Notes: generated by a model not told the origin, from the letters alone. Counted from the first letter of the stretch, positions 1-62,335 are shown. The stretch: DNA of 64,000 bases from a bacterium (GCA_963633165.1 CAVGXP010000038.1:56290-120289), one strand, 5' to 3'. A program made the numbers and translations.

Positions 1-297
1 CTGCATTTCCTCAAACAGGAAATTCCCCATCAATCCGCCGTTTTGATCACTTCCTTCAAGAAAGAGAAGGGCGGTTTGATCATCGACGCCACGATTCTGC
101 TAAACAAAAAGAACCACAAAGCCATCGTCATCGGCAAAGGTGGGGAGATGATCAAGAAAATCTCCATGGCGGCTAGACATGAAATGGAAAGGGTCTTCAA
201 GACCCACGTCACGGCTTTGAACATCGAAGTCGATGTCAAAGAAGGCTGGAGAGACGACCTTACGATGCTCAAAAAGCTCGGCTATGGTGAGAACTGA
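1..297 (+). CDS. era: GTPase Era, C-terminal part (KH domain); 5' end lies outside the window
   Basis: Frame-1 translation from base 1 gives ...SAVLITSFKKEKGGLIIDATILLNKKNHKAIVIGKGGEMIKKI..., the Era C-terminal KH domain (IVIGKGG motif). A recO gene immediately downstream matches the Firmicutes era-recO order. Confidence 0.8.
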   Translation: MHFLKQEIPHQSAVLITSFKKEKGGLIIDATILLNKKNHKAIVIGKGGEMIKKISMAARHEMERVFKTHVTALNIEVDVKEGWRDDLTMLKKLGYGEN

Positions 298-1015
298 GAA
301 ACGCCGCACCGGAATCGTGCTCCGCCTCACCCCTTTTAAGGACTCCGATGCGATGGTTAACGCGATTTCCGAAGACGGCTTCTTTTCCTTTAAGGCAAGA
401 GGAGTGGAAAAACTCTCTTCGAAAAACGCCCCGTCGGTGCAGCCTTTGACTTTGTCCGAGTTCGTCTTAATGGAATCCCAAAGCGGCGGACTAAGCTTAA
501 AAGAGGGCGGAGTTATCGAGTCTTTTTCAAAAATCGAGGATTTAAGCTGCGGTGCGACGCTTTCTTTCATTCAAGAGCTAACGCTCAAGGTCGTTCAAGA
601 GGACGAAGCGTTGAGGGTTTACCCTTATCTTCTCGCCTCTCTTAGGCTCATTTCTTCAGGCAATGATCCTTTGAGCGTGGGCCTGCTTTATTTTGCGAAG
701 GTCCTAACGATTGGTGGTTATGGGCTAAATGTCGATCGCTGCGTGATTTGCGGCAAGCAAAAGGACATCGTTTGTCTTAGCTACAGCGAGGGCGGTTTCC
801 TTTGCCGCGACGACTTCGAGACTGAGGCATCAATTAAAACTTCGCCACGTCACCTCCAGATTGCACGGTTTCTCTTCAAATGCGAAGAAAAGGACTTTCC
901 CCGTGGCAAATTCGCCAAGGAGGAATGCCTGCTTTTCTATTCCGAATTAAGCCAATACCTTGAAAACCTGACCGGTGTTAAGCTCAAATCCATCAGTCTT
1001 CTAAAGAAATTTTAG
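284..1015 (+). CDS. recO: DNA repair protein RecO
   Basis: About 244 aa with an N-terminal OB fold (GIVLRLTPFKDSDAMV) and a C-terminal Cys cluster (CVICG...C). An ATG at 284 overlaps the era stop; the track ORF starts at 233 but era-recO synteny favours the internal start. Confidence 0.8.
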   Translation: MVRTEKRRTGIVLRLTPFKDSDAMVNAISEDGFFSFKARGVEKLSSKNAPSVQPLTLSEFVLMESQSGGLSLKEGGVIESFSKIEDLSCGATLSFIQELTLKVVQEDEALRVYPYLLASLRLISSGNDPLSVGLLYFAKVLTIGGYGLNVDRCVICGKQKDIVCLSYSEGGFLCRDDFETEASIKTSPRHLQIARFLFKCEEKDFPRGKFAKEECLLFYSELSQYLENLTGVKLKSISLLKKF

Positions 1016-1030
1016 TACCCTTATAGTGGG

Positions 1031-1059
1031 TTGACGTAAAATGGATAGACGCATATACT
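1031..1059 (+). promoter_or_regulatory. Candidate sigmaA promoter for glyQS (TTGACG-17 bp-TATACT)
   Basis: Near-consensus -35 and -10 hexamers with 17-bp spacing, about 55 bp upstream of the glyQS ATG (1116). No T-box sequence fits in the 100-bp leader. Confidence 0.45.
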
Positions 1060-1115
1060 TTCACGGCTTTTTGCATGGCGAAAAGCGGGAAGGAGGAATC
1101 TATTTCCTTATCTAT

Positions 1116-2495
1116 ATGAGTCAAAAATTCAGTTTCGAAACAATCACCCAACACCTTCAAACCTCCGGGTTCGTGTTCCAAGGCTCCCAGATTTACGGCG
1201 GGCTTTCCAACACTTGGGATTACGGCCCCCTCGGGGCGGAGATGAAGCGCAATATTCGCTCGATGTGGTGGAAGAAATTCGTTCAGGAATCTCCCACAAA
1301 CGTCGGTTTGGACGCCGCCATTTTGATGAATCCCCGTGTTTGGGAAGCTACGGGCCACGTTTCCACCTTCAACGACCCGATGGTCGACTGCAAAGCCTGC
1401 AAAGCCAGGCATAGGGCCGATGAACTGATCAAAGGCCAATATCCCGACGTCGACGTTGATGGAATGACCTTCGAGCAGATGGATGAGTTCATGAAAACCC
1501 ACCCCATGACCTGTCCAAATTGCGGCAAGAGCGATTTCACTCCGATTCGCAAATTCAACATGATGTTCAAAACGCACATCGGCGTCACCGAGGACGCTTC
1601 CAGCGTCGTCTATTTGCGTCCGGAGACCGCTCAAGGCGTCTTCGTGAACTTCAAAAATGTCCAAAGGACCTGCAGGAAGAAGATCCCCTTCGGCGTCTGC
1701 AACGCCGGCAAGAGCTTCCGCAACGAAATCACCCCGGGGAACTTCACCTTCCGCACGCGTGAATTCGAGCAGCTCGAGATGGAATTCTTCTGCAAGCCAG
1801 GCACCGATCTTGAATGGTTTGCCTATTGGAAGGAGTATTGCCGTAAGTTCCTCGATTCCCTCGGCGTTAAGGATGAAAATCTTCGTTATAGGGACCACGA
1901 ACCCGCAGAGCTTGCCTTCTATTCCAAGGCGACGACCGACGTCGAGTACGATTTCCCAAGCATTGGCTGGGGCGAAATCCTCGGTGTTGCCGACAGAACC
2001 GATTATGACCTCAAGCGTCATATGGATTATTCCCATGAGGATCTGACTTATCTTGATCCTGAGACCAACGAGAAATACGTTCCTTATACCATCGAACCAT
2101 CGATGGGCTTGGACCGTCTGTTCTTGATGGTGGCCATGGACGCTTACGATGAGGAAGAGCTCGAAGGCGGCGAAAAACGCATCGTCATGCATCTTAACCC
2201 GGCTCTCGCCCCTTATAAAGTGGCGGTGCTTCCCTTGTCTAAGAAGCTCAACGACTCCGCTAAAGAGCTTGAGCAAGTTCTTGCCAAGGCTTTCTCGACG
2301 ACCTATGACGAGACCGGTTCTATCGGGAAACGCTATAGAAGAGAAGACGCGGTGGGCACGCCCTATTGCGTCACGGTCGACTTCGAGACCGAAAATGACC
2401 ACAGCGTCACCGTCCGCGACCGCGACAGCATGGAGCAGACCCGCGTCAAAATCGATGATCTCGTCGATTTCTTACGTGAGAAGGTTGCGTATTAA
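1116..2495 (+). CDS. glyQS: Glycine--tRNA ligase, homodimeric alpha2 type (GlyQS)
   Basis: The MSQKFSFETI..QGSQIYGGLSNTWDYGPLG N-terminus and class II motifs (FRNEITPGNFTFRTREFEQLEMEFF) identify it. The start is taken at the internal Met with a GGAGG-like RBS; the track ORF begins at 1041. Confidence 0.9.
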   Translation: MSQKFSFETITQHLQTSGFVFQGSQIYGGLSNTWDYGPLGAEMKRNIRSMWWKKFVQESPTNVGLDAAILMNPRVWEATGHVSTFNDPMVDCKACKARHRADELIKGQYPDVDVDGMTFEQMDEFMKTHPMTCPNCGKSDFTPIRKFNMMFKTHIGVTEDASSVVYLRPETAQGVFVNFKNVQRTCRKKIPFGVCNAGKSFRNEITPGNFTFRTREFEQLEMEFFCKPGTDLEWFAYWKEYCRKFLDSLGVKDENLRYRDHEPAELAFYSKATTDVEYDFPSIGWGEILGVADRTDYDLKRHMDYSHEDLTYLDPETNEKYVPYTIEPSMGLDRLFLMVAMDAYDEEELEGGEKRIVMHLNPALAPYKVAVLPLSKKLNDSAKELEQVLAKAFSTTYDETGSIGKRYRREDAVGTPYCVTVDFETENDHSVTVRDRDSMEQTRVKIDDLVDFLREKVAY

Positions 2496-2582: not shown

Positions 2583-4391
2583 TTGATTGAAGCGGTGCTC
2601 AAAAACGCCGATATCGTCACCGTTATTTCCTCCTACCTCAATGTCATCAACAAAGGACGATACACCGTTGCCCTTTGCCCCTTCCATGACGACAAACACC
2701 CTTCGCTAAACATCTCCAAAGAGAAGCAAATCTACAAATGCTTCTCTTGCGGAGAGGGCGGGAACGCCATCTCCTTCGTTCAAAACTATGAGCATGTCTC
2801 ATTCGAGGAGGCTCTTAGGAAAGTCGCGGAGATCTCCGGATTCCATGACCCTCGTTTAGAAAGCGAGAGGACCCAAGTCGTCGTCGATCCTGAAAAGGAA
2901 CCCTTGTACAAGACAATCAACGACCTCGATAAGTATTATCGTTACGCGCTGAACACGCCTGAGGGCAAAAACGCCAGGGACTACCTTGAAAAAAGGAATA
3001 TCCCATCGAGCCAAATCGAGAAATTCGGCATTGGCTATGCCCCTAGGGACGGCAAAAACACGGTTCTTGTGCTCCAAGCCAAGAAGCATTCCTTGAAGTC
3101 GATTGAAGACATCGGCATCGCCCGCGCGCAGCTGACGGATTCAAAAGACGGAAACGCCGGACGGTTGATCTTCCCTTTGACCGATCCGCAGGGACGAGTC
3201 GTCGGCTTCTCGGCTAGAAAACTTCTCGAAGAGGATAGCCCCAAGTACGTCAATTCGCCCGAAACCAAGATCTTCCACAAAGGCGAAACGCTCTATAACT
3301 ACTTTAGGGCCTATAAAACCTGCAGGCACGATGGCTATGTTTATCTGCTTGAAGGCTTCATGGACGTCATGGCCTTAGACCGCATAGGCATCAGCTCTGC
3401 CGTGGCCTTATGCGGGACTTCGCTGACGAAGGAGCAGATCGATCTATTGAGAAAGATGCGGTGTGAGATCCGCGTCTGTCTTGATGGGGATGATCCAGGC
3501 CAAATCGGCATGATGAAGATTCTTGGCCTCCTTCAAAAAGCCAATCTTCCCTGCCGCTTCGTTTCCAATCCCGGCGACACCCGCGATCCTGACGATATCC
3601 TTCAAGAAAGCGGGGAGGCTGCCTTGAAAGAGGCGATGAGCCACCTCGTGGACGCTAGCGATTTCGCGTTGAACTTCTACCTCAACACGAAAAAGCTCGA
3701 TACTATCGAAGACCGCCAAAAGGTCTTGAAACATTTCCTGCCTTATTGCGCAAGCCTTGCGCCGGGGATAGAAAAGGAGAACTACATCGCAAAATTAGCC
3801 AAAGCAACCCGCTTTGAGCCAGAGGCGGTGAGAGCCATGCTTCCAAGCTCTCCTTCAAGCAGGAAAGAGGAGGATCAGGGTTTCGCCGAGCGTCGGCCCC
3901 GTCTTAAAAAAACGAGCCTTAAGGAAGAAAAAGGGCCCAACACGCGGCTATACCGCGCCGAGAGGACCATCCTCTATTACATGCTTCGCCACAGCGAAGC
4001 CATCGCCTATTTCGAAAATCGGCTCGGCGATTTCTATTATCCACTCAACAACACCTTAGCCAATTACATCATCGATTATTCCTCTTCTCACGATGGCCAA
4101 ATCGAAGAAGCTCAGCTCCTTGGAGTGGTCCAAAGCGAAGGAGGGGAAGAGGCGAAAGACCTCGAGGAATCCCTTCTTTCCCTTTATGGGGAGGAAGAGA
4201 AGTCCAAACCTCCCTTCTCTAGCGGCCTGCTAGACGCTTGCGGCAAGGCCATCGACCAGGAAAAAGAGAAGATGAGGGTTAACGAAGAGGCGAAGAAAGC
4301 CTTCGCCGCGAACGACTTAGAAGAGCGCAAGAAATTCTTAAGCGCCTTCGCTGACCAGCGCAGAAAGAACTGGAACAGCAAAAAGAAATAA
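2583..4391 (+). CDS. dnaG: DNA primase DnaG
   Basis: CHC2 zinc finger ([10 protein letters not shown]...[14 protein letters not shown]) and TOPRIM region ([20 protein letters not shown]). It sits in a glyQS-dnaG-sigA operon context. The start is uncertain, possibly TTG, and the SD aggaaaggag lies about 22 nt upstream. Confidence 0.9.
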
Positions 4392-4413
4392 AACGAAAAA
4401 AGGAGAGAAAACC

Positions 4414-5880
4414 ATGGCAACCAGCAAGAAACCAGCAAAATCCGCCAGCGCCAAAAAAGAAAGCAAGAAGGCTGTCAAACCCGTTTTGGAAGAAGAAGAG
4501 GACATCGAAGGCCTCGAAAGCATCAAAAAACGTTTCCTCAAGAAAGGGAAAGATGAAGGGGGCATCGACATCGGGGAAGTCCTTGACGCCGCCAACCACC
4601 TCGATCTTTCCGACGAAGACATCGAGTCTTTGATGGGCTTCTTCAAAGAGAACGGCATCAACGTCTCCGAAGATGAGGACATCAAAGAGGAAGAGGAGCC
4701 CGACGGCCCCAACCTCAGCGATCTTGAGAACGCCGAAAAGGATCTCGAGGAAGAAGACGCCGACGTCGCAGCTGAAGAGATGGGCGGAGGATCGGAGAAA
4801 GAAGAACTCGACGCCGTCAACGAGTTCAACCACGCCGCCATCGGCGAGGTCAAAGTCAACGACTCGGTCAAGATGTACCTCAAAGAGATCGGCAAAGTCG
4901 ATCTTCTCACCGCGGCGCAGGAAACCGAGCTTGCCAAGCGCATCGTCAAAGGCAACGAGGCCAAAGCCAAACTCGAACAGCTTTACTCTGAATACAAGAA
5001 GCGGGGCGGAGATGCCGAATACGCGGATTGGTACAAGAAGATTGACGTTTATGGCTCTTCCGATGAGTCCCGCCTCAAATACGCCCAGGAAGATGGCATC
5101 GGAAAAGGCGTCGACGGGCAGCAGGGGGCCAAAGACCAATTGATCACGGCCAACCTTCGTCTTGTCATCTCCATCGCCAAACACTACGTTGGCAGGGGCA
5201 TGCACTTCCTCGATCTCATCCAGGAAGGAAACATGGGTTTGATGAAGGCCGTCGAAAAATTCGATTACACCAAAGGGTTCAAATTCTCGACTTATGCGAC
5301 TTGGTGGATTCGTCAAGCCATCACCCGCGCCATCGCCGACCAAGCCAGAACCATCCGCATCCCGGTTCACATGGTCGAGACCATCAACAAAATCACCCGC
5401 GTTCAGCGCCAATTGACCCAGGAACTCGGCCGTGAGCCGACGGCGGAAGAAATCTCCGCCAAACTCGAAGGCGCCCAAAGCGCCGAAGCGATTCTCCGCA
5501 TCCAGCGCATCGCTCTTGAGCCCGTTTCTTTGGAAACTCCGATCGGAGAAGAGGACGACTCCAGGCTTGGCGACTTCCTTGAAGACAAAGAAACCCAATC
5601 TCCGGAAGAATACACGACCAAGAGCCTTCTCAAAGATGAGCTCTACGACATCATGAAGGACCTCACCGACCGCGAGGAGAAGGTCCTCAGGCTCCGCTAC
5701 GGCTTAGATGACAACCGTCCCCGCACCCTTGAGGAAGTCGGACGCGAATTCGGGGTCACTCGCGAACGCATCCGTCAGATCGAGGCCAAGGCCATCCGCA
5801 AACTTCGCCATCCCACCCGCGCCAAGAAGCTTGGCGATTATAGGGAAGCCAATTTCGGCGGGGAAGGCAAAAACCGCTAA
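4414..5880 (+). CDS. sigA: RNA polymerase primary sigma factor SigA/RpoD
   Basis: Acidic region 1.1, region 2 ([27 protein letters not shown]) and region 4 ([28 protein letters not shown]). A 22-bp gap after dnaG implies co-transcription. Confidence 0.95.
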
Positions 5881-35636: not shown

Positions 35637-37379
35637 TTACTCTTCTTCCGTTGTTAACCCAACGAGTTCGAGCTGTTCTTTGGTCACCGGTTGGGGTGCG
35701 TGAGAGAGTGGATCGGAGGCTTGGAGATTCTTCGGGAAGGCCTCGACGTCGCGGATATTGTCGGTTCCGGTGAGTATCATGGCCAAGCGGTCCAATCCGA
35801 AGGCGATGCCGCCATGGGGCGGGCAGCCAAAGCGGAAGGCGTCGATGAACCAGCCGAATTTCTTAGCCACTTCCTCATCGGAGAGGCCGAGGATTTTGAA
35901 GATCTTCCATTGCGTGTCGTGATCGTAGATCCTAAGCGTTCCACCGCCGGCTTCATAGCCGTTGATGACGATGTCATAGGCATAAGCGAGGACTTCCTCC
36001 GGCTTGCTATCGAGCAGAGGCAAGTCTTCGTCGCGAGGACGGGTGAAAGGATGGTGCTCGGCAACGTATTTCCCCTCTTCCCCTTCAACGGGATCAAACA
36101 TCGGGAAATCGACGACCCAGAGCAAATCGTAGGTATTGGGTTTGATGAGGGATAGCTTCTTCGCGAAAAGCGTCCTCAATGCGCCTAAGCCAAAATCGAT
36201 GTCGCGGCGGTCGTTAGCGCTAGCGAATAGAAGCAAATCGTCTTCTTTCAAGCTCAAAGCTTCGATGAGCTTGGCTTTGGTCCCCTCATCGAGGAACTTC
36301 GCAAACGAGCCTTCCAAGACGCCATTTTCAACTTTCAAAGACAAAACGCCTTTGAGCTTGAATTTCCTAGCTTCGAGATTAAGCTCGTCCAAGACTTTCC
36401 TAGACGTTTCTTTGCCTTGATTAGGAACGATGATGCCTTTGATGTATTCTTGGCCCTCAAACCCTTTGAAAGGCACGTCTATTAGCAAGGATTTGAGATC
36501 GTGGATCTCCAGCCCATAGCGCGTATCGGGCTTATCGCTGCCATAGGTGTCCATAGCATCCCAATAAGAGATGCGGCGAAGAGGCAAAGAAACCTCATAG
36601 CCAGCAACGTCTTTGAATATTTTGGCCAAGAAACCCTCATTAAGAGCGAGGATTTCGTCTTGGCTAAGGAAGGAGACTTCCTCGTCGAGCTGAGTGAATT
36701 CAGGCTGCCTATCCGCGCGGAGATCTTCATCGCGGAAACATTTGGCGACTTGGTAATAACGTTCCACTCCGCCGATCATCAATAACTGCTTCCAAAGCTG
36801 CGGAGATTGAGGGAGAGCATAGAATGACCCATGATGGACGCGGCTAGGGACGAGATACTCCTTGGCTCCTTCTGGAGAAGAAACGTTAAGGGCGGGCGTA
36901 TCGACTTCAAGAAAGCCGCGCTCATCGAAATATTCATGGAAATCCTTGACGATTTTGGCCCTGGCTTTCAGTTTGTTGAGGATATAGGGCCTGCGGATGT
37001 CAAGATAGCGGTATTGAAGCCTGGTCTCCTCCAAGGCGTCGGTTTTGTCGGCGATGATGAAAGGGGTCGTTTCCGCTTTGTTGAAAACGGTGATCTCGGA
37101 GACAATGACCTCCACTTCCCCGGTCTTCAAAGCGGGATTAGGATCTTTCTTCAAAGCAACCTTCCCCTTGGCTTGGATGACGTATTCGCTTCTGACGTCA
37201 GGAATTGAGTCGGGATCATTAACGGTGAGCTGGACGATGCCCGTGCTGTCACGCAGATCGATGAATTCGATGCCGCCGAGCTTTCTTACCTTCGCGGCCC
37301 ATCCGCACAAGGCGACCTCGCGCCCGGCGTCTTCCTTACGGAGATTGCCGTTATAATCACTTCTTTCGATGCTTTTCAT
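35637..37379 (-). CDS. aspS: Aspartate--tRNA ligase
   Basis: Class IIb aaRS with N-terminal OB fold (VALCGWAAKVRKLGGIEFIDLRDSTGIVQ) and motifs 2/3 (FRDEDLRADRQPEFTQLD; GGIAFGLDRL). Start taken at MKSIER, whose ATG overlaps the hisS TGA (ATGA). Confidence 0.9.
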   Translation of the reverse strand: MKSIERSDYNGNLRKEDAGREVALCGWAAKVRKLGGIEFIDLRDSTGIVQLTVNDPDSIPDVRSEYVIQAKGKVALKKDPNPALKTGEVEVIVSEITVFNKAETTPFIIADKTDALEETRLQYRYLDIRRPYILNKLKARAKIVKDFHEYFDERGFLEVDTPALNVSSPEGAKEYLVPSRVHHGSFYALPQSPQLWKQLLMIGGVERYYQVAKCFRDEDLRADRQPEFTQLDEEVSFLSQDEILALNEGFLAKIFKDVAGYEVSLPLRRISYWDAMDTYGSDKPDTRYGLEIHDLKSLLIDVPFKGFEGQEYIKGIIVPNQGKETSRKVLDELNLEARKFKLKGVLSLKVENGVLEGSFAKFLDEGTKAKLIEALSLKEDDLLLFASANDRRDIDFGLGALRTLFAKKLSLIKPNTYDLLWVVDFPMFDPVEGEEGKYVAEHHPFTRPRDEDLPLLDSKPEEVLAYAYDIVINGYEAGGGTLRIYDHDTQWKIFKILGLSDEEVAKKFGWFIDAFRFGCPPHGGIAFGLDRLAMILTGTDNIRDVEAFPKNLQASDPLSHAPQPVTKEQLELVGLTTEEE

Positions 37380-38836
37380 TTCTTTTCTCCTTGGCAGCAG
37401 CAATGCCCTTCCTCATCATCGCAGCATTCGCCTTCGTGATGATCGTGATGCCCGCAGCAGCAATGGTCATGCTCTTCTGGGTGTTCGTTATGCTCCTGAC
37501 AGCAGCAATGCCCCTCTTCGTGGTCATGGCCGCAGCAGCAGGAATCCTCATGCTCCAATTTTCTGAATTCTTCGTCGAGGACGGCCTCTAAATCTTCGAT
37601 GGCGACTTCTTTCTGCTCCTGTGTGGCGACGTTTTTAAGCTGCACGACGCCTTTTTCGATGTCGTCTTGTCCTAGAATCAAAGCGAATTTGGCGTTGGCC
37701 CTGACGGCTTTCTTGAACATGGTTCCAAGTTTGCCTTTTGCAAAGGGCATCTCCACGGAATAGCCGCCGTGACGGAGGGATTGGGTCAAGGAATAGCAAT
37801 CGTCGAGGACTTCTTCCCCTATCGGCATGACATAGAGATCGACGCCGTGGCTTAAGGAAGAGAGCAACCCGTTGTCTTTCATCAATGAATACAGACGCTC
37901 AACGCCCATGGCGAAGCCCACGCCCGAATCGTTTTCCTTGGGGCCATTGAAGTTAGCCATCATGCCGTCGTAATGGCCTCCGCCAAGCAAGGCGCCATAA
38001 TCTTTGCCTTCTTTGGACGTGGCGTGGACCTCGAAGACGACCTCGCCGTAATAATCGAGGCCTCTGACGAGGGAATCGTCGATTTCATAATCGATTTCCT
38101 GATCGGCGATGATGGAAAGGGTTTGGTAGAAGCGTTTGCTGGATTCCTCGGAAAGGAAATCTTTCATCTTCGGGGCGTCTTTGACGATTTCCTGATCTTC
38201 GGGGACTTTGCAATCGAGGATGCGCATGGGGTTGAGGAGCAAGCGCTGCTTGCAATCCTCGCACATCGTGTCGATGCGGGTAGCGAAATATTTCTTCAAC
38301 GCCTCTTTGTAGGCATCCCTGGATTGCTGATCGCCCAAGGTGTTGATCTTGACCTTGAGGTTCTCGAACCCGAGATAGCTTAAAACGTCCATGGCAAGGC
38401 AGATGTTTTCGGCATCGAGCCTGGCGCTATTGACCCCCACGGCTTCAACGCCGGCTTGGATGAATTGGCGGTATCGGCCAAGTTGAGGCCTTTCATAACG
38501 GAAAACAGGTCCGACGTAATAGCATTTCAATGGGAGATCGCCGGTGGCGTAGAGCTTGTGCTCGACAATGGAGCGGATGACCCCGGCCGTGCCTTCGGGG
38601 CGGAGGGTCAAGGACCGTTCGCCTTTATCGAGGAAAGTGTACATCTCCTTCCTGACGACGTCGCTGCTTTCCCCCGTCGAACGATCGAAGACTTCGGTGT
38701 ATTCGAGCACCGGCGTCTCGATTTTGCGATATCCGTAAAGCTCGGCGACCGCGGAGAAAACGTTCTGAATGTAAGTGTAGGCTTCCGCCTCCTCGCCATA
38801 GAGGTCGTGCGTGCCTTTGATGCCTTGGAAAACCAT
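37376..38836 (-). CDS. hisS: Histidine--tRNA ligase with an unusual Cys/His-rich C-terminal extension
   Basis: HisRS motifs (RYERPQLGRYRQFIQAGVEAVG; GGGHYDGMM) over about 425 aa. A 60-aa tail follows: HEDSCCCGHDHEEGHCCCQEHNEHPEEHDHCCCGHHDHHEGECCDDEEGHCCCQGEKK. Confidence 0.9.
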   Translation of the reverse strand: MVFQGIKGTHDLYGEEAEAYTYIQNVFSAVAELYGYRKIETPVLEYTEVFDRSTGESSDVVRKEMYTFLDKGERSLTLRPEGTAGVIRSIVEHKLYATGDLPLKCYYVGPVFRYERPQLGRYRQFIQAGVEAVGVNSARLDAENICLAMDVLSYLGFENLKVKINTLGDQQSRDAYKEALKKYFATRIDTMCEDCKQRLLLNPMRILDCKVPEDQEIVKDAPKMKDFLSEESSKRFYQTLSIIADQEIDYEIDDSLVRGLDYYGEVVFEVHATSKEGKDYGALLGGGHYDGMMANFNGPKENDSGVGFAMGVERLYSLMKDNGLLSSLSHGVDLYVMPIGEEVLDDCYSLTQSLRHGGYSVEMPFAKGKLGTMFKKAVRANAKFALILGQDDIEKGVVQLKNVATQEQKEVAIEDLEAVLDEEFRKLEHEDSCCCGHDHEEGHCCCQEHNEHPEEHDHCCCGHHDHHEGECCDDEEGHCCCQGEKK

Positions 38837-38866
38837 GTTAAAAAACTCCTATTTTGCAACGTTGCT

Positions 38867-38895
38867 AGTATAAGCCCCTTAAGGGGCTACTTCAA
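38867..38895 (-). promoter_or_regulatory. Candidate sigmaA promoter of hisS-aspS with a GC palindrome in the spacer
   Basis: Minus-strand sense TTGAAG-17 bp-TATACT. The spacer is tAGCCCCTTAAGGGGCTt (a 16-bp palindrome). A ~31-nt leader with an AGGAG RBS leaves no room for a T-box. Confidence 0.45.
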
Positions 38896-38920
38896 AGGAA
38901 ATGGGACGACGATCGTCTGC

Positions 38921-41158
38921 TCAATGCGTCAAGCGGTTGACGGCAAAGACGCTTTTTACGCCAATAAGCGCCACGAAGAGATCTTCAAGGGCTTTTGCAG
39001 ATTTGACGTTGATGGTCAAATTGATGACGTCGTTCATCGTCTCGGTGACCAAATGAATCTTCAAATCGGAGACGAGAATGCTTTTGGCGGAGATTGTCTG
39101 CAGGATATCCGCGGCCAAGCCTTGTCGGTCGTTGGCGATGACTTCGATATCGACGGGGTAAGAGGCCGTCGGATCGAGGTCTTCTCTCCACTGCAAAGGA
39201 ATTAGACGCGCTTTTTCCTTAGCGATATTGGGGCAATCCTTGCGGTGAACCGTGATGCCTTTGCCGCGGGTGATGTAGCCTACGATTTCATCTCCGGGGA
39301 TCGGCGTGCAGCATTGGCTTATCGTGACGGCCAAGCCCGTGATTCCGCCAGGGACCTCGACGGGGCAATTGGAGGAAATCTCTTTTTGGGTCTTTTTCTT
39401 AGAGAGTTTTGGAGCGAGCTTCTTCTTGACATGGAGGAACTCCAAAACCGCGCCTGGAGCGGGGTTTCTGGAGCAAAGCATGACGAAAAGATCGTCGATG
39501 GACTCGCAATGGAATTCGTTTTCGAGCTTGGGGAAGGAGTCGTTGAGGATCTTCATCGCCTCTTCTTCCTCAAATCCCTGCATCTTGAAGGAATCCATCA
39601 TCGAAGTGCGGCCTTGCTTTATCTTCTCCTCCTTCATGATGGAGGCGTCTTTTTTCTGCAAGGCGCGGCGGATATGGGCTTTGGCGGAGGACGTTTTGGC
39701 GATGTCTAGCCAAGAAGTGTTGGGCCCGGAGGCGTTGGGGGAGGTTTTTATTTCGCAGATGTCGCCGGTTTTTAGCTCGGTTGATAATGGCACGAGGGCG
39801 CCGTTGACGAGGGCCCCCACCGCCGCATCGCCGACCTTGGTGTGAATCCTATAGGCAAAATCAAGCGTGGTCGACCCCGTGGGGAGCTCGATGACCCTGC
39901 CAAGGGGGGTGAAAACATAGACGTTGGCCCCGAAGATATCGTGGGTGAGCGTCTCCATGTATTCCTTGGCCGTCCCTTTTTCTTGGCCGGAGAGGCTGAC
40001 GAAATCGCGGAACCAATGGAGCTGATTCTCGATTTCCTTTTGTTCTTCCTTTGGGTTGTAATGGCTGCCTTCTTTGTATTTCCAATGGGCGGCGACGCCG
40101 GTTTCGGCGATTTGATCCATCTCCTCGGTGCGGATTTGGATCTCGTATACGCTGCCATCACCAGCCATGACCGAGGTATGCAGAGATTGGTACATGTTGG
40201 GCTTTGGCATGGCGATGTAATCTTTGAACCTGCCGGGGATGGGCGCATAGGTGGTATGGATCATCCCAAGGATTTCGTAGCAATTGACCGTTGTCTTCGT
40301 GATGACACGAATGGCAAGGATATCGAATATCTCATCGAAGGAATGTCCTTTTTTGTACATCTTCTTATATATCGAATAGATGGATTTGACGCGGCTTTCC
40401 ATCCTAAAGGGGATGCCATGTTCGTAGAGCTGATCGGCGATGCGCTTTTTGAACTGCTCAAGGGCGTCTTTGCGGTTCTCGAATCTCTCATCCACCATCG
40501 CTTTGATCTTTGCGTAAATCTCAGGCTCAAGGTATTTAAGAGACAGGTCCTCAAGCTCGCTTTGGACGGTGTAGATACCAAGTCGGTGGGCGATCGGGGT
40601 AAAGACCTCAAGGGTTTCTTTGGCCAAGGCGTGTTGCCTATCCGGGGACAAAGACTGGAGGGTGCGCATGTTGTGAAGCCTATCCGCGAGCTTGACGATG
40701 ATGACCCTGACGTCATTTGCCATGCCTAGGAAAATCTTTCTATGATCCTCGGCTTCGAAGTCCTCCTTGGACATATGGGAGAGCTTCATGCGCTGAATTT
40801 TCGTTAAGGAATCGACGATTAGGCGCACATCGGCCCCGAAACGGGTTTCGATTTCCTGAATTGGGGTGTCGGTGTCTTCCACCACATCATGAAGGAAAGC
40901 CGAGGCGATCGTGGCCGGTCCAGCTTGTAATTTCGCGCAGATATAGGCCACTTCCAAAGGATGGTGGATATAAGGCTCGCCGGATTTGCGGAATTGATTC
41001 TTGTGCTTTTCGGCGGCGAAATCATAAGCGCTTTGAATGAGCTTTTGATCATCGGGGTTGCTGATATAGGTCGACAAAAGGGCCTTCAGGTCCTCAAAGC
41101 TATGCATCGGGTATCCCCCATTTGGGGGCAATGGTTTGTTCTCTTGGCTTTTTTCCAT
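38921..41158 (-). CDS. relA: Bifunctional (p)ppGpp synthetase/hydrolase Rel (RelA/SpoT)
   Basis: HD hydrolase (HPLEVAYI..HDVVEDT), synthetase (MYQSLHTSVMAGDGSVYEIQIRTEEMD), TGS and ACT domains; 745 aa. Confidence 0.95.
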   Translation of the reverse strand: MEKSQENKPLPPNGGYPMHSFEDLKALLSTYISNPDDQKLIQSAYDFAAEKHKNQFRKSGEPYIHHPLEVAYICAKLQAGPATIASAFLHDVVEDTDTPIQEIETRFGADVRLIVDSLTKIQRMKLSHMSKEDFEAEDHRKIFLGMANDVRVIIVKLADRLHNMRTLQSLSPDRQHALAKETLEVFTPIAHRLGIYTVQSELEDLSLKYLEPEIYAKIKAMVDERFENRKDALEQFKKRIADQLYEHGIPFRMESRVKSIYSIYKKMYKKGHSFDEIFDILAIRVITKTTVNCYEILGMIHTTYAPIPGRFKDYIAMPKPNMYQSLHTSVMAGDGSVYEIQIRTEEMDQIAETGVAAHWKYKEGSHYNPKEEQKEIENQLHWFRDFVSLSGQEKGTAKEYMETLTHDIFGANVYVFTPLGRVIELPTGSTTLDFAYRIHTKVGDAAVGALVNGALVPLSTELKTGDICEIKTSPNASGPNTSWLDIAKTSSAKAHIRRALQKKDASIMKEEKIKQGRTSMMDSFKMQGFEEEEAMKILNDSFPKLENEFHCESIDDLFVMLCSRNPAPGAVLEFLHVKKKLAPKLSKKKTQKEISSNCPVEVPGGITGLAVTISQCCTPIPGDEIVGYITRGKGITVHRKDCPNIAKEKARLIPLQWREDLDPTASYPVDIEVIANDRQGLAADILQTISAKSILVSDLKIHLVTETMNDVINLTINVKSAKALEDLFVALIGVKSVFAVNRLTH

Positions 41159-61999: not shown

Positions 62000-62335
62000 G
62001 CTTGTTTTCCTCCTGTTTCCGGCTTTTTATAGACTCGCTAGGAAGGCGGGAAATTTCCACTTAAGCCTTTTTTAGGCGGTTGCACCCCAAAAGCCAGGAG
62101 GTTACAACGGGGTTATATTATGCGCTTTTCCCTTTAAAGGGAAGCCTTTTTTGAGCGAGTTTCGCCCTCGCTATACAAGGTTTTGCATCAGCGCGAATTT
62201 TAGGGCATAGGCCATTAAAGGAAAAGAGTTTCATTAACGCCAAAAATCCGGCCTTTATCGGTCTTTTCTCCGTTTTCAAAGGTCATAACTATGCAATAGA
62301 AACCGGCTTATTCAACAGAGGATTAATGCATGTGT
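62000..62335 (-). promoter_or_regulatory. Structured 5' leader of the rplU-prp-rpmA operon (candidate L21 leader)
   Basis: 335-bp non-coding region with several hairpins, including a perfect 16-bp palindrome TTCCCTTTAAAGGGAA. Firmicutes rplU operons commonly carry the L21 leader RNA; I did not verify the consensus. Confidence 0.3.

What the first reader, a model, noticed from the sequence alone, without database searches (positions are those of the whole stretch)
37376..37570. Histidyl-tRNA synthetase carries a 60-aa Cys/His-rich, metal-binding-like C-terminal tail encoded by repetitive DNA
After a complete, canonical HisRS the ORF continues with ...HEDSCCCGHDHEEGHCCCQEHNEHPEEHDHCCCGHHDHHEGECCDDEEGHCCCQGEKK. 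That segment has four CCC triplets, about 17 His and a high Glu/Asp content. The underlying DNA is a degenerate repeat of gcagcagcaatg..., which also yields two spurious overlapping ORFs (37357-37551 minus, 37391-37591 plus). Such tails resemble the His/Cys-rich metal-storage or metallochaperone extensions of HypB, SlyD and UreE. One on an aminoacyl-tRNA synthetase is not a standard feature, least of all on the enzyme that charges histidine. The tail ends exactly at an ATGA overlap with aspS, so it is not an intergenic artefact.
Basis: seen in the sequence. Interest (0 to 1): 0.7.

Follow-up and report, generated by a model that had tools for sequence, protein, structure and literature searches.

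The report
Cysteine/histidine-rich tail on histidyl-tRNA synthetase
A group of uncultured gut and rumen bacteria has added a floppy tail rich in cysteine, histidine and acidic residues, the kind of sequence that binds metal ions, to the enzyme that loads histidine onto tRNA; the tail is real, under selection and apparently undescribed, but its metal and purpose are untested.

Summary
hisS (37376-38836, minus strand) encodes a complete HisRS (residues 1-426) followed by a 60-aa tail. The tail has 14 Cys (four CCC and one CC), 13 His (not about 17) and 19 Asp/Glu. It ends in an ATGA overlap with aspS.

The tail is not an artefact. A 91%-identical orthologue with the same tail was read on 10 contigs, the three shown coming from three samples.

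It is lineage-wide. Of 77 complete HisRS from species-representative MAGs of this clade (Ca. Enteromonas and similar "Bacilli/Mollicutes" MAGs), 65 carry a tail with at least 3 Cys+His, 1-80 aa long: 48 Cys+His, 15 His-only, 2 Cys-only. Make-up is conserved; sequence and length are not. Aligned tail codons show pN/pS of about 0.1-0.26 at saturated synonymous sites. AlphaFold predicts disorder. No other gene in the window or in 680 kb of related loci has such a stretch.

The same EEGHCCCGHH-type motif turned up in a CobW-type metallochaperone GTPase and a Cd/Zn P-type ATPase. The best reading is a metal-binding extension like the tail of H. pylori HspA. The metal and the physiological role are inferred only. 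The "repetitive DNA" is just reuse of the codons CAT-TGC-TGC-TGC.

The parts
37559..38836 (-). hisS core: complete class II histidyl-tRNA synthetase, residues 1-426 (catalytic domain plus anticodon-binding domain plus final helix)
   Evidence: TIGR00442 matches residues 5-412 at 459 bits. Pfam PF13393 covers 8-315 and PF03129 covers 334-422. The AF2 model is confident up to the last helix, 413-432. Solved bacterial HisRS align up to residues 416-426.
37379..37558 (-). C-terminal tail, residues 427-486: 14 Cys, 13 His, 19 Asp/Glu and 6 Gly, built from about five CC(C)-x8-15 units (SCCCGHDHEEGH / CCCQEHNEHPEEHDH / CCCGHHDHHEGE / CCDDEEGH / CCCQGEKK)
   Evidence: No Pfam or NCBIfam domain matches it. 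pLDDT is 32-39 with no secondary structure. pN/pS is about 0.10 against the nearest relative at pS 0.78. Equivalent tails occur in 65 of 77 related species.
37392..37555 (.). Four degenerate copies of (T/C)GGCAGCAGCAATG on the + strand (37392-37414, 37452-37474, 37497-37519, 37533-55). This is the reverse complement of the (G)H/S-C-C-C codons. It is codon reuse, not a tandem repeat.
   Evidence: See repeat finder family D2. TRF found nothing. The pattern count is 3 against 0.26 expected.
37376..37379 (-). ATGA overlap: the hisS stop TGA (37378-37376) overlaps the aspS start ATG (37379-37377)
   Evidence: Read directly. The same 4-nt overlap is called in L081-L083. hisS-aspS spacing is -9 to +57 nt in 76 related loci.
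37387..37392 (-). AAGGAG Shine-Dalgarno sequence for aspS, lying inside the last tail codons (Q-G-E); it ends 7 nt before the aspS ATG
   Evidence: Read directly. An SD-like motif lies inside the end of hisS in 37 of 76 related loci. This probably explains the recurring G/E/K-rich last residues of the tails.
35637..37379 (-). aspS (aspartyl-tRNA synthetase), probably translationally coupled to hisS; it has no Cys/His-rich segment
   Evidence: See the ORF list. Pfam families tRNA_anti-codon, tRNA-synt_2 and GAD hit the orthologue in L081. It follows hisS in 76 of the 80 related loci.
38921..41158 (-). relA/spoT-family (p)ppGpp synthetase/hydrolase, ending 84 nt upstream of hisS; there is no room for a T-box leader and none was detected
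   Evidence: See the ORF list. The orthologue in L081 has HD, RelA_SpoT, TGS and ACT domains. Rfam found no T-box in the window.
37357..37591 (.). Three overlapping ORFs in other frames (37357-37551 -, 37369-37566 +, 37391-37591 +). They stay open only because the Cys/His/Glu codon periodicity avoids stop codons. They are judged not to be genes.
   Evidence: See the ORF list. Selection acts on the HisRS frame. One metagenome scaffold (L084) was called in the Ala-rich frame after a junction frameshift, while its Cys/His frame stays intact downstream.

Best explanation
hisS here encodes a normal, complete HisRS fused at its C-terminus to a 60-residue, intrinsically disordered, strongly acidic tail rich in Cys and His. 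The tail is a lineage-wide but fast-changing feature of HisRS in this clade of uncultured gut and rumen Bacilli (Ca. Enteromonas and relatives).

Selection keeps its make-up (Cys, His, Glu/Asp, Gly) but not its sequence or length. It grows and shrinks by in-frame gain and loss of short H-C-C-C / H-H-H-type units.

Its most likely role is to bind soft or borderline transition-metal ions (Zn(II), Ni(II), Co(II) or Cu(I)) through thiolate and imidazole ligands. That would make an abundant, constitutively made housekeeping enzyme double as a metal buffer, sequestration site or donor. The His/Cys-rich C-terminal extension of H. pylori GroES (HspA) does this for nickel.

Shown here: the tail is real, translated in this frame, under selection, specific to HisRS, predicted disordered, and shares its motif with proteins of metal-handling families. 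Inferred: that it binds metal in the cell, which metal, and that buffering or delivery is the selected function.
For: 1. The enzyme is complete before the tail.

2. The tail is conserved across species. Of 77 complete HisRS from species-representative genomes, 65 carry tails with at least 3 Cys+His: 48 Cys+His, 15 His-only such as EEHHHHE, and 2 Cys-only. Tail length is 1-80 aa. Pooled tail composition is Cys 15.6%, His 22.7%, Glu 25%, Asp 10% and Gly 10%, against Cys 1.4% and His 1.6% in the cores.

3. Aligned tail codons are under purifying selection at saturated synonymous sites. pN/pS is 0.079/0.78, 0.217/0.84, 0.11/0.85 and 0.14/0.93 in four close pairs. All length differences are in frame.

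4. It is not an assembly artefact. The identical 484-aa orthologue was read on 10 contigs, the three shown coming from three samples.

5. It is specific to HisRS. No other Cys/His-rich stretch lies in any real gene of the window. In the flanking genes of the 80 related loci (680 kb, including RelA and AspRS from the same genomes) the only other hits were three short antisense ORFs that I judged spurious.

6. AF2 gives pLDDT 32-39 and no secondary structure for residues 431-486, while the core is confident.

7. A metagenome scan for HCCC...HCCC coding DNA gave two real genes among the 120 stretches returned. One is a CobW/COG0523-type GTPase with an (HEHHHHEEGHCCCGHHHEE)n linker. The other is a Cd/Zn-type P1B ATPase with an N-terminal HEDHCCCHEHEHEEEHCCC stretch. 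Both families handle metals.

8. There is precedent. The His- and Cys-rich C-terminal extension of HspA is a nickel sequestration domain, and the -CC- motifs of Hpn and HspA are proposed metal anchors (PMC4671568). The His-rich C-terminus of mycobacterial GroEL1 binds Cu(II) (PMC10170517).

9. Tails made only of Cys or only of His both occur. The shared property is metal-ligand richness, not histidine as such.
Against: - There is no experimental evidence of metal binding for any of these proteins.
- Twelve of the 77 species lack the tail. They form about five small clades nested among tailed ones, so the tail is dispensable, at least in some backgrounds.
- Sequence and length turn over very fast, as also expected for weakly selected low-complexity sequence. 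Alignments of low-complexity sequence can bias pN downwards.
- Metal capacity carried on one aminoacyl-tRNA synthetase would be modest.
- Nothing explains why HisRS in particular is the carrier.
- I could not scan whole genomes of this clade for other tailed proteins or for nickel, zinc or cobalt enzymes and transporters.
- Tail-only homology searches found nothing, so the link to known metal-binding tails is by composition and motif, not by descent.
Confidence: 0.55

Rival explanations
1. The tail is a regulatory appendage of HisRS itself. Being acidic and disordered, it would fold back on the tRNA-binding or active-site surface, or change oligomerisation. Metal binding or thiol oxidation would release or lock it. 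tRNA-His charging would then respond to metal or redox state, and so would the RelA-dependent stringent response; relA sits directly upstream.
For: - The tail has 19 acidic and only 2 basic residues.
- It starts right after the last helix of the anticodon-binding domain.
- relA, hisS and aspS are contiguous, with only 84 nt between relA and hisS and no T-box.
- The tail is specific to HisRS rather than spread over other genes.
- From general knowledge, free histidine is a major cellular ligand of Ni, Zn and Cu. The search listed a paper titled 'Brucella abortus histidine auxotrophs are copper sensitive' (PMC13001215; title only, paper not read).
Against: - No position or spacing is conserved relative to the core.
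- Length varies from 1 to 80 aa, and short EEHHHH tails are too short to reach far.
- Loss in about five clades suggests no obligatory regulatory role.
- Nothing here tests enzyme activity.
- This rival is compatible with the metal-binding explanation and differs only in what the binding is for.
Confidence: 0.15
2. The tail is neutral or nearly neutral low-complexity sequence. It would be created by stop-codon loss and replication slippage in a region that tolerates extension, with no selected function.
For: - Length and sequence turn over very fast, and unit number varies between close relatives. L003 has a 44-aa tail and L005 an 80-aa tail, although their cores are very similar (core pN 0.034).
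- The tail was lost repeatedly.
- The DNA motif CATTGCTGCTGC recurs.
- Some assemblies break or frameshift here: L004 has an N run and L084 a frameshift.
Against: - Composition stays restricted to five residue types across cores that are only 50-100% identical.
- pN/pS is 0.1-0.26 at saturated synonymous sites.
- The reading frame is always kept, although two other frames are also open.
- No comparable expansion occurs in any neighbouring gene of 80 genomes.
- The same motif is used in proteins of metal-handling families from other phyla.
Confidence: 0.12
3. The tail is a 'hungry-codon' sensor. The run of His codons at the very end of hisS would stall ribosomes when His-tRNA-His is scarce. Stalled ribosomes would sit over the aspS ribosome-binding site and so tune translation of the coupled aspS, or tune hisS mRNA fate. 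This would replace the T-box leader that controls hisS-aspS in Bacillus (the Bacillus T-box is from general knowledge).
For: - The carrier is the enzyme that charges tRNA-His.
- The commonest short form is 3-6 consecutive His codons only a few codons from the stop.
- hisS and aspS overlap or lie -9 to +57 nt apart, and the aspS SD lies inside hisS in 37 of 76 loci.
- No T-box is present.
Against: - Two species have Cys-only tails with no His at all (L020, L052), and most long tails are as rich in Cys as in His.
- Stalling would lower synthesis of full-length HisRS just when it is needed.
- The tail-coding mRNA is not more structured than shuffled controls (z = +1.34), so there is no attenuator-like structure.
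- Amino-acid-level selection also acts on the Cys, Glu and Gly positions.
Confidence: 0.07
4. The Cys clusters ligate an iron-sulfur cluster (some aminoacyl-tRNA synthetases carry [4Fe-4S] clusters, from general knowledge) or act as a sacrificial thiol or redox buffer in these strict anaerobes.
For: There are 14 Cys in 60 residues with CCC triplets. The organisms live in anoxic gut and rumen habitats, judging by the record titles.
Against: - Fifteen species have His-only tails without any Cys.
- No fixed Cys spacing is conserved.
- The tail is predicted disordered.
- The same motif occurs in Zn/Cd/Co-type metal-handling families rather than in Fe-S proteins.
Confidence: 0.05
5. The tail is an assembly or frameshift artefact, and the real protein ends near residue 426.
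For: One related scaffold (L084) is frameshifted at the core/tail junction, and one MAG (L004) has a run of N inside the tail.
Against: - The same architecture occurs in 65 independent species-level assemblies.
- The identical orthologue was read on 10 contigs.
- All length differences are in frame and selection acts on the frame.
- In L084 the Cys/His frame is intact downstream of the shift.
Confidence: 0.01

Closest known systems
HspA, the GroES co-chaperonin of Helicobacter pylori, with its His/Cys-rich C-terminal extension
   Same: An essential housekeeping protein carries a lineage-restricted C-terminal extension rich in His with Cys-Cys motifs. In HspA this extension acts as a nickel sequestration domain and a nickel chaperone for hydrogenase (PMC4671568).
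   Different: - The carrier differs: an aminoacyl-tRNA synthetase, not a chaperonin.
- The tail here is longer (60 aa, up to 80), more acidic, and has CCC triplets.
- Its length and sequence vary widely between species.
- There is no sequence homology.
- No metal, regulator or client is known.
Hpn / Hpn-2 of gastric Helicobacter (small His-rich nickel-storage proteins)
   Same: Similar extreme His content with -CC- motifs that are proposed to be functionally important for metal binding (PMC4671568). The flavour of the motifs is also similar: acidic-Gly-Cys-Cys next to His runs.
   Different: Hpn proteins are free-standing 60-66 aa proteins, not a tail on an enzyme. They are far richer in His (28 of 60). 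They are unrelated by descent.
His-rich tails of nickel and other metal accessory proteins (SlyD, HypB, UreE, CooJ) and the His-rich C-terminus of mycobacterial GroEL1
   Same: These are disordered terminal low-complexity segments rich in metal-ligand residues, attached to a folded protein. The GroEL1 tail binds Cu(II) (PMC10170517). The rest is from general knowledge.
   Different: Apart from GroEL1, those carriers are themselves part of metal-insertion pathways. HisRS has no known metal-trafficking role and needs only Mg-ATP. Most of those tails are poor in Cys.
His/Cys-rich linkers of COG0523 (CobW-type) metallochaperone GTPases, and N-terminal His/Cys-rich extensions of Zn/Cd P1B-type ATPases
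   Same: Nearly the same peptide motif occurs. L154 (Pfam cobW plus CobW_C) has (HEHHHHEEGHCCCGHHHEE)n. L172 (TIGR01512 Cd-family P-type ATPase, 498 bits) starts MTHHHEHEDHCCCHEHEHEEEHCCC. The window tail has HEEGHCCC, HCCCGHH and DEEGHCCC.
   Different: Those stretches sit in proteins whose business is metal handling, and from other lineages. By neighbouring genes (spoIIGA-like and glycoside-hydrolase-like, my reading of their N-termini without a family search), L154 looks like a sporulating Clostridia-like contig and L172 a Bacteroidota-like contig. The resemblance is convergent, not homologous.
Bacterial metallothioneins (SmtA/BmtA type)
   Same: High Cys plus His content, and metal-thiolate and imidazole clusters are expected.
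   Different: Metallothioneins have a defined Cys/His pattern and a zinc-finger-like fold. The tail has no Pfam match, no conserved pattern and is predicted disordered.
Canonical bacterial HisRS (S. aureus 1QE0, T. thermophilus 1ADJ/4RDX, E. coli 1KMM)
   Same: The core aligns end to end (E = 1e-108 to 1e-79), and it is an equivalog-level hisS match.
   Different: Solved bacterial HisRS are 420-438 aa and end within a few residues of our position 416-426. None has a Cys/His-rich extension.

Membership tests
Histidine--tRNA ligase (HisRS, class IIa; NCBIfam TIGR00442) | Full-length match to the hisS equivalog model above its curated cutoff | tested here: met
   459 bits against a cutoff of 286.75; residues 5-412 match model positions 2-405 of 406.
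Histidine--tRNA ligase (HisRS, class IIa; NCBIfam TIGR00442) | HisRS catalytic domain followed by an HGTP-type anticodon-binding domain | tested here: met
   PF13393 covers 8-315 (E = 1.4e-41) and PF03129 covers 334-422 (E = 4.6e-16). The AF2 core is confident. The best PDB match is S. aureus HisRS at E = 1e-108.
Histidine--tRNA ligase (HisRS, class IIa; NCBIfam TIGR00442) | It is the housekeeping enzyme rather than the HisZ regulatory paralogue | tested here: met
   The HisZ model TIGR00443 scores 178 bits, below its cutoff of 271.65. An anticodon-binding domain is present. The conserved relA-hisS-aspS context holds in the related loci.
HspA/Hpn-like His/Cys-rich metal-sequestering extension (a functional class, not a homology family) | A terminal extension that is absent from orthologues outside the lineage | tested here: met
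   It is absent from all solved bacterial HisRS and present in 65 of 77 species of this clade. Sister orders could not be sampled.
HspA/Hpn-like His/Cys-rich metal-sequestering extension (a functional class, not a homology family) | Strong enrichment of His together with paired or clustered Cys | tested here: met
   14 Cys (four CCC and one CC) and 13 His in 60 aa. P is about 1e-11 to 1e-13 against the core composition.
HspA/Hpn-like His/Cys-rich metal-sequestering extension (a functional class, not a homology family) | Demonstrated binding of several metal ions per chain and a metal-tolerance or metal-delivery phenotype | not testable with these tools
   This needs purified protein (ICP-MS, ITC) and genetics. 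The organisms are uncultured.
HspA/Hpn-like His/Cys-rich metal-sequestering extension (a functional class, not a homology family) | Co-occurrence with, or regulation by, a metal regulon (for example NikR with urease or [NiFe]-hydrogenase in Helicobacter) | not tested
   Only 64 kb of this genome and about 8 kb per relative were available. I found no metal-related gene next to hisS in the gene calls I saw.
Bacterial metallothionein or a folded zinc-ribbon/zinc-finger domain | A match to a domain model with a fixed Cys/His pattern, and a predicted fold | tested here: not met
   No Pfam or NCBIfam hit covers residues 427-486 at E up to 0.1. There is no PDB sequence match at E up to 10. pLDDT is 32-39 with no secondary structure. 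No Cys spacing is conserved among relatives.
T-box-regulated hisS-aspS operon (Bacillus type) | A T-box leader RNA upstream of hisS | tested here: not met
   Rfam at gathering thresholds found only an L21 leader in the whole window. Only 84 nt separate relA from hisS.
Tandem-repeat (micro/minisatellite) coding array | Head-to-tail copies of a unit with a regular period | tested here: not met
   TRF found nothing at a minimum score of 30. The copies are degenerate (65-87% identity) with spacings of 24-60 nt.

The most novel reading that the evidence does not exclude
In this clade HisRS would be a true bifunctional protein. The tail would make it a metal-responsive node, sensing or buffering Zn, Ni or Cu that competes with or is chelated by the free histidine pool. 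tRNA-His charging, and through uncharged tRNA-His the co-encoded RelA stringent response, would then report the cell's metal and histidine status. Alternatively, HisRS would serve as the main cytosolic metal store or donor in these reduced genomes. Either case would be the first aminoacyl-tRNA synthetase with a dedicated metallostasis role.
Probability: 0.12. Interest if true: 0.75.

Novelty: new variant of a known kind. Interest (0 to 1): 0.55.

Why it matters
His/Cys-rich metal-binding tails are known on a handful of proteins, such as HspA, GroEL1, SlyD, HypB and UreE. I found none described on an aminoacyl-tRNA synthetase.

Here the tail is not a one-off. It runs through dozens of species of an abundant but uncultured lineage of human and animal gut bacteria, in forms from a natural His-tag (EEHHHHE) to an 80-residue module like a metallothionein.

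If it binds metal in vivo, it would show how small-genome gut bacteria buffer or allocate Zn, Ni, Co or Cu without dedicated storage proteins. It would also link metal homeostasis to the histidine branch of translation. The practical test is simple: compare recombinant protein with and without the tail.

The tail also causes mis-called genes in automatic annotation, through frame-shifted and overlapping ORFs, and it causes assembly breaks.

Tried and rejected
- **Tail-only homology searches found nothing.** The word-indexed search found no candidate. phmmer against 1.84 billion representatives gave 0 hits. phmmer against PDB at E up to 10 gave 0 hits. Low complexity defeats these methods, so nothing can be said about descent.
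- **No tandem repeat.** TRF found none, so the 'repetitive DNA' idea is downgraded to codon reuse.
- **No T-box or other riboswitch before hisS.** Rfam found none. Promoter and terminator scans were at chance level.
- **No RNA structure in the tail-coding region.** The fold is not more stable than shuffled controls (z = +1.34), so an RNA-level element is rejected.
- **The Cys/His enrichment is not genome-wide.** No other real gene in the window has such a stretch. In 680 kb of related loci the only other hits were three short antisense ORFs, judged spurious.
- **The metagenome DNA-pattern scan was mostly noise.** The scan for HCCC...HCCC returned 120 stretches, mostly simple-sequence DNA read in the wrong frame. 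Only L154 and L172 were informative.
- **The window's own protein could not be looked up.** P0001 is not on record in the contig index, so I could not extend beyond the window.
- **Taxonomy look-up failed.** 'Candidatus Enteromonas' is not in the NCBI taxonomy dump. Placing the clade in GTDB order RF39 rests on my memory, not on a test.
- **Literature searches found nothing relevant.** Searches for a HisRS His/Cys tail gave nothing. A large metallostasis review does not mention tRNA synthetases in the 300,000 of about 606,000 characters held.
- The third homologue search, the second structure job and fold search were not used. None could sample outgroup HisRS or whole genomes, which is what is still missing.

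Full report
**What is there**

On the minus strand, 37376..38836 is a 486-codon ORF. It matches the NCBIfam hisS equivalog model end to end: residues 5-412 against model positions 2-405 of 406, at 459 bits with a cutoff of 286.75. It also matches the Pfam HisRS catalytic domain (8-315) and anticodon-binding domain (334-422). All solved bacterial HisRS structures (420-438 aa) stop within a few residues of our position 416-426. The enzyme is therefore complete at about residue 426.

The ORF then continues for 60 more residues: LEHEDSCCCGHDHEEGHCCCQEHNEHPEEHDHCCCGHHDHHEGECCDDEEGHCCCQGEKK. This tail has 14 Cys (four CCC and one CC), 13 His, 19 Asp/Glu, 6 Gly and only 2 basic residues. Against the composition of HisRS cores, such Cys and His counts have probabilities of about 1e-13 and 1e-11.

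The stop codon overlaps the aspS start as ATGA (37379-37376). The aspS Shine-Dalgarno sequence AAGGAG (37392-37387) lies inside the last tail codons.

**The DNA 'repeat'**

Tandem Repeats Finder reports nothing. The repeat finder shows four degenerate copies (65-87% identity) of a motif containing GCAGCAGCAATG at irregular spacings. That 12-mer occurs three times with up to one mismatch, against 0.26 expected. It is the reverse complement of CAT-TGC-TGC-TGC (His-Cys-Cys-Cys).

The TGC:TGT ratio in the tail (13:1) is the same as in neighbouring genes (24:1). So the DNA similarity is a consequence of a repeated peptide motif plus normal codon bias.

Because Cys, His and Glu codons avoid stop codons in other frames, three overlapping ORFs of 64-66 aa stay open. 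They are by-products. The tail-coding RNA is not more structured than shuffled controls (z = +1.34).

**The tail is real and conserved**

The closest database proteins are HisRS from uncultured MAGs labelled Candidatus Enteromonas, Mollicutes or Bacilli. Nearly all of the top 120 carry an extension after the conserved ...LDxxF end.

A scan of one genome per GTDB species returned 80 loci, nearly all labelled as uncultured Bacilli, Mollicutes or Erysipelotrichaceae bacteria; where a source is given it is gut, faeces or rumen. A few bins carry other names. In 76 of them hisS is followed by aspS at -9 to +57 nt.

Of 77 complete HisRS (the window plus 76 of these loci), 65 have a tail with at least 3 Cys+His:
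- 48 are mixed Cys+His.
- 15 are His-only, typically EEHHHH(E), a natural His-tag.
- 2 are Cys-only (L020, L052).
- The remaining 12 have essentially no tail and form about five small clades nested among tailed ones.

Tail length runs from 1 to 80 aa, with a median of 20. Pooled tail composition is Cys 15.6%, His 22.7%, Glu 25%, Asp 10% and Gly 10% (83% in total). The cores have Cys 1.4% and His 1.6%.

A 91%-identical orthologue (484 aa, same ATGA overlap) was read on 10 contigs, the three shown coming from three samples. This excludes an assembly artefact.

**Selection**

Between the window and its nearest relatives, synonymous sites are saturated (pS 0.64 in the core, 0.78 in the tail). Non-synonymous differences in aligned tail codons stay low. 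pN/pS is 0.079/0.78 against L081 and 0.217/0.84 against L001. In two other close pairs it is 0.11/0.85 and 0.14/0.93. All length differences are in frame.

Close relatives differ by whole units. For example, the L003 tail is 44 aa and the L005 tail is 80 aa, with extra HECCCGHHHEE-type units. The tail is therefore translated in this frame and its amino-acid make-up is under purifying selection, while unit number changes freely. One caveat: alignments of low-complexity sequence can bias pN downwards.

**Specificity and structure**

No other real gene among about 44 long ORFs in the window has a Cys/His run or cluster. In 680 kb of flanking sequence from the 80 related loci the only other hits were three short antisense ORFs that I judged spurious. 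Those flanks include RelA and AspRS from the same genomes, which serve as internal controls.

AlphaFold2, run with a 45-sequence alignment, models the core confidently. It gives pLDDT 32-39 and no secondary structure for residues 431-486. The tail is thus predicted to be disordered, at least without metal. No Pfam, NCBIfam or PDB sequence match covers the tail.

**What it most likely does**

His imidazoles, Cys thiolates and carboxylates are the classic ligands of Zn, Ni, Co and Cu. The fact that His-only, Cys-only and mixed tails all occur points to ligand richness as the common selected property.

Independent support came from a metagenome scan for DNA encoding HCCC...HCCC. Most hits were simple-sequence DNA in meaningless frames, but two were real genes:
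- L154 is a CobW/COG0523-type GTPase (Pfam cobW plus CobW_C) with an (HEHHHHEEGHCCCGHHHEE)n linker.
- L172 is a Cd/Zn-family P1B-type ATPase (TIGR01512, 498 bits) starting MTHHHEHEDHCCCHEHEHEEEHCCC.

Judging by their neighbouring genes, which I read from N-terminal sequence without a family search, these two contigs come from unrelated lineages. The same peptide motif therefore appears to be used convergently in proteins whose job is handling such metals.

The closest described analogue is H. pylori HspA. This GroES has a lineage-specific His- and Cys-rich C-terminal extension that sequesters nickel and serves hydrogenase maturation. The -CC- motifs of Hpn and HspA are proposed metal anchors (PMC4671568). 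The His-rich tail of mycobacterial GroEL1 binds Cu(II) (PMC10170517).

I therefore favour a metal-buffering, sequestering or donating tail carried on an abundant housekeeping enzyme (confidence about 0.55). Which metal is bound is not decidable from sequence. The resemblance to the CobW-type linker and the Cd/Zn ATPase N-terminus leans towards Zn/Co/Cd-type chemistry, and the resemblance to HspA and Hpn towards Ni.

**Rivals**

1. Metal- or redox-controlled regulation of HisRS itself, and through uncharged tRNA-His of the RelA encoded directly upstream. This is compatible with the data but untested (0.15).
2. Neutral low-complexity expansion. It fits the rapid turnover and the losses, but not the composition constraint, the pN/pS values or the specificity to HisRS (0.12).
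3. A His-codon stalling sensor coupled to aspS translation. This is attractive because the carrier is HisRS, there is no T-box, and the aspS ribosome-binding site often lies inside the tail. It is contradicted by the Cys-only tails, by the equal enrichment of Cys, and by the absence of RNA structure (0.07).
4. An Fe-S cluster or thiol buffer, contradicted by the His-only tails (0.05).
5. An artefact (0.01).

**Known or new**

Searches of the held literature found no description of a His/Cys-rich extension on HisRS or on any aminoacyl-tRNA synthetase. A recent comprehensive review of bacterial metallostasis does not mention tRNA synthetases in the part held.

The kind of element is known: a disordered metal-ligand-rich tail on a folded protein. 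Three things appear new: the carrier, the spread across a whole clade, and the continuum from His-tag to a metallothionein-like module. I rate it a new variant of a known kind with moderate interest (0.55). It is surprising to a synthetase or metal-homeostasis specialist and easy to test, but no function has been demonstrated.

**Limits**

- I could not scan whole genomes of this clade or sample outgroup HisRS.
- Placing the clade in GTDB order RF39 is from memory, since the taxonomy look-up failed.
- The tree is a quick neighbour-joining tree with midpoint rooting.

Noticed in passing
L084:2640-2760 (ENA scaffold STEW19-1...26763; protein P0008): In this relative of L001 the core frame runs into the Ala/Met/Thr-rich alternative frame of the tail (VWAAMTTMKAIA...). 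The cause is a frameshift exactly at the core/tail junction, together with one extra GHDHDEGHCSC unit. The Cys/His frame stays open downstream and still ends in the aspS overlap. This is probably an assembly or sequencing error in the repeat, or a very recent mutation. It shows how gene callers can mis-annotate these tails.
   Followed up: partly
L004:about 2500-2720 (MAG UBA1624 contig): A run of N sits inside the HisRS tail, so my ORF extraction fused hisS and aspS into one reading frame. The tail region seems to be a weak point for short-read assembly and scaffolding.
   Followed up: no
window 38200-38265 (-), HisRS residues C192, C195, C209: Three cysteines in the insertion domain (MCEDCKQRLLLNPMRILDCKV) are invariant in all 45 aligned HisRS of the clade. 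This could be a structural metal or disulfide site in the core, separate from the tail. The same CxxC...C pattern occurs in other Firmicute HisRS as far as I remember.
   Followed up: no
window 37377-37403 (-): The mechanical ORF list starts aspS at a TTG (37403) inside the hisS tail. Comparison with relatives and their gene calls puts the real start at the ATG of the ATGA overlap (37379), with the AAGGAG SD ending 7 nt upstream of it.
   Followed up: yes
window 62025-62091 (-): This ribosomal protein L21 leader (Rfam RF00559, 38.4 bits against a gathering score of 36) is the only Rfam family found in the 64-kb window.
   Followed up: no
L154 (JAEIGA010033685.1), minus strand 3816-5042: A CobW/COG0523-type GTPase has a roughly 90-residue internal array of (HEHHHHEEGHCCCGHHHEE) units between the GTPase domain and the CobW_C domain. 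It lies next to an ORF whose N-terminus (GFLDSGKT) looks like a second CobW-type protein (not checked by a family search), on a sporulating-Firmicute-like contig. It is a striking example of the same motif in a metallochaperone family.
   Followed up: partly
L172 (JAEEGG010017545.1) 257-2362 (+): A Cd/Zn-type P1B heavy-metal ATPase has an N-terminus that replaces or precedes the usual metal-binding domain with HHHEHEDHCCCHEHEHEEEHCCCHEHEHEEHEHHGCGCGCGCHH. It sits on a Bacteroidota-like contig.
   Followed up: partly
L012, L013 and proteins P0023, P0027, P0028, P0033, P0041, P0048: A subset of short tails shares a defined motif, E-G-C-(D/T)-C-(P/G)-x-C-(Q/H), for example EGCDCPQCQEK and EGCTCGHCHD. 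This looks more like a single discrete metal site than bulk low-complexity sequence. Two such tails in the HisRS dimer could form an inter-subunit site.
   Followed up: no
window 38837-38920 (-): Only 84 nt separate relA/spoT from hisS. They contain one weak sigma-70-like match (TTGAAG-17-TATACT, 38895-38867) and no terminator above chance. relA-hisS-aspS-tkt may be one transcription unit, and it lacks the T-box leader typical of Bacillus hisS-aspS.
   Followed up: partly
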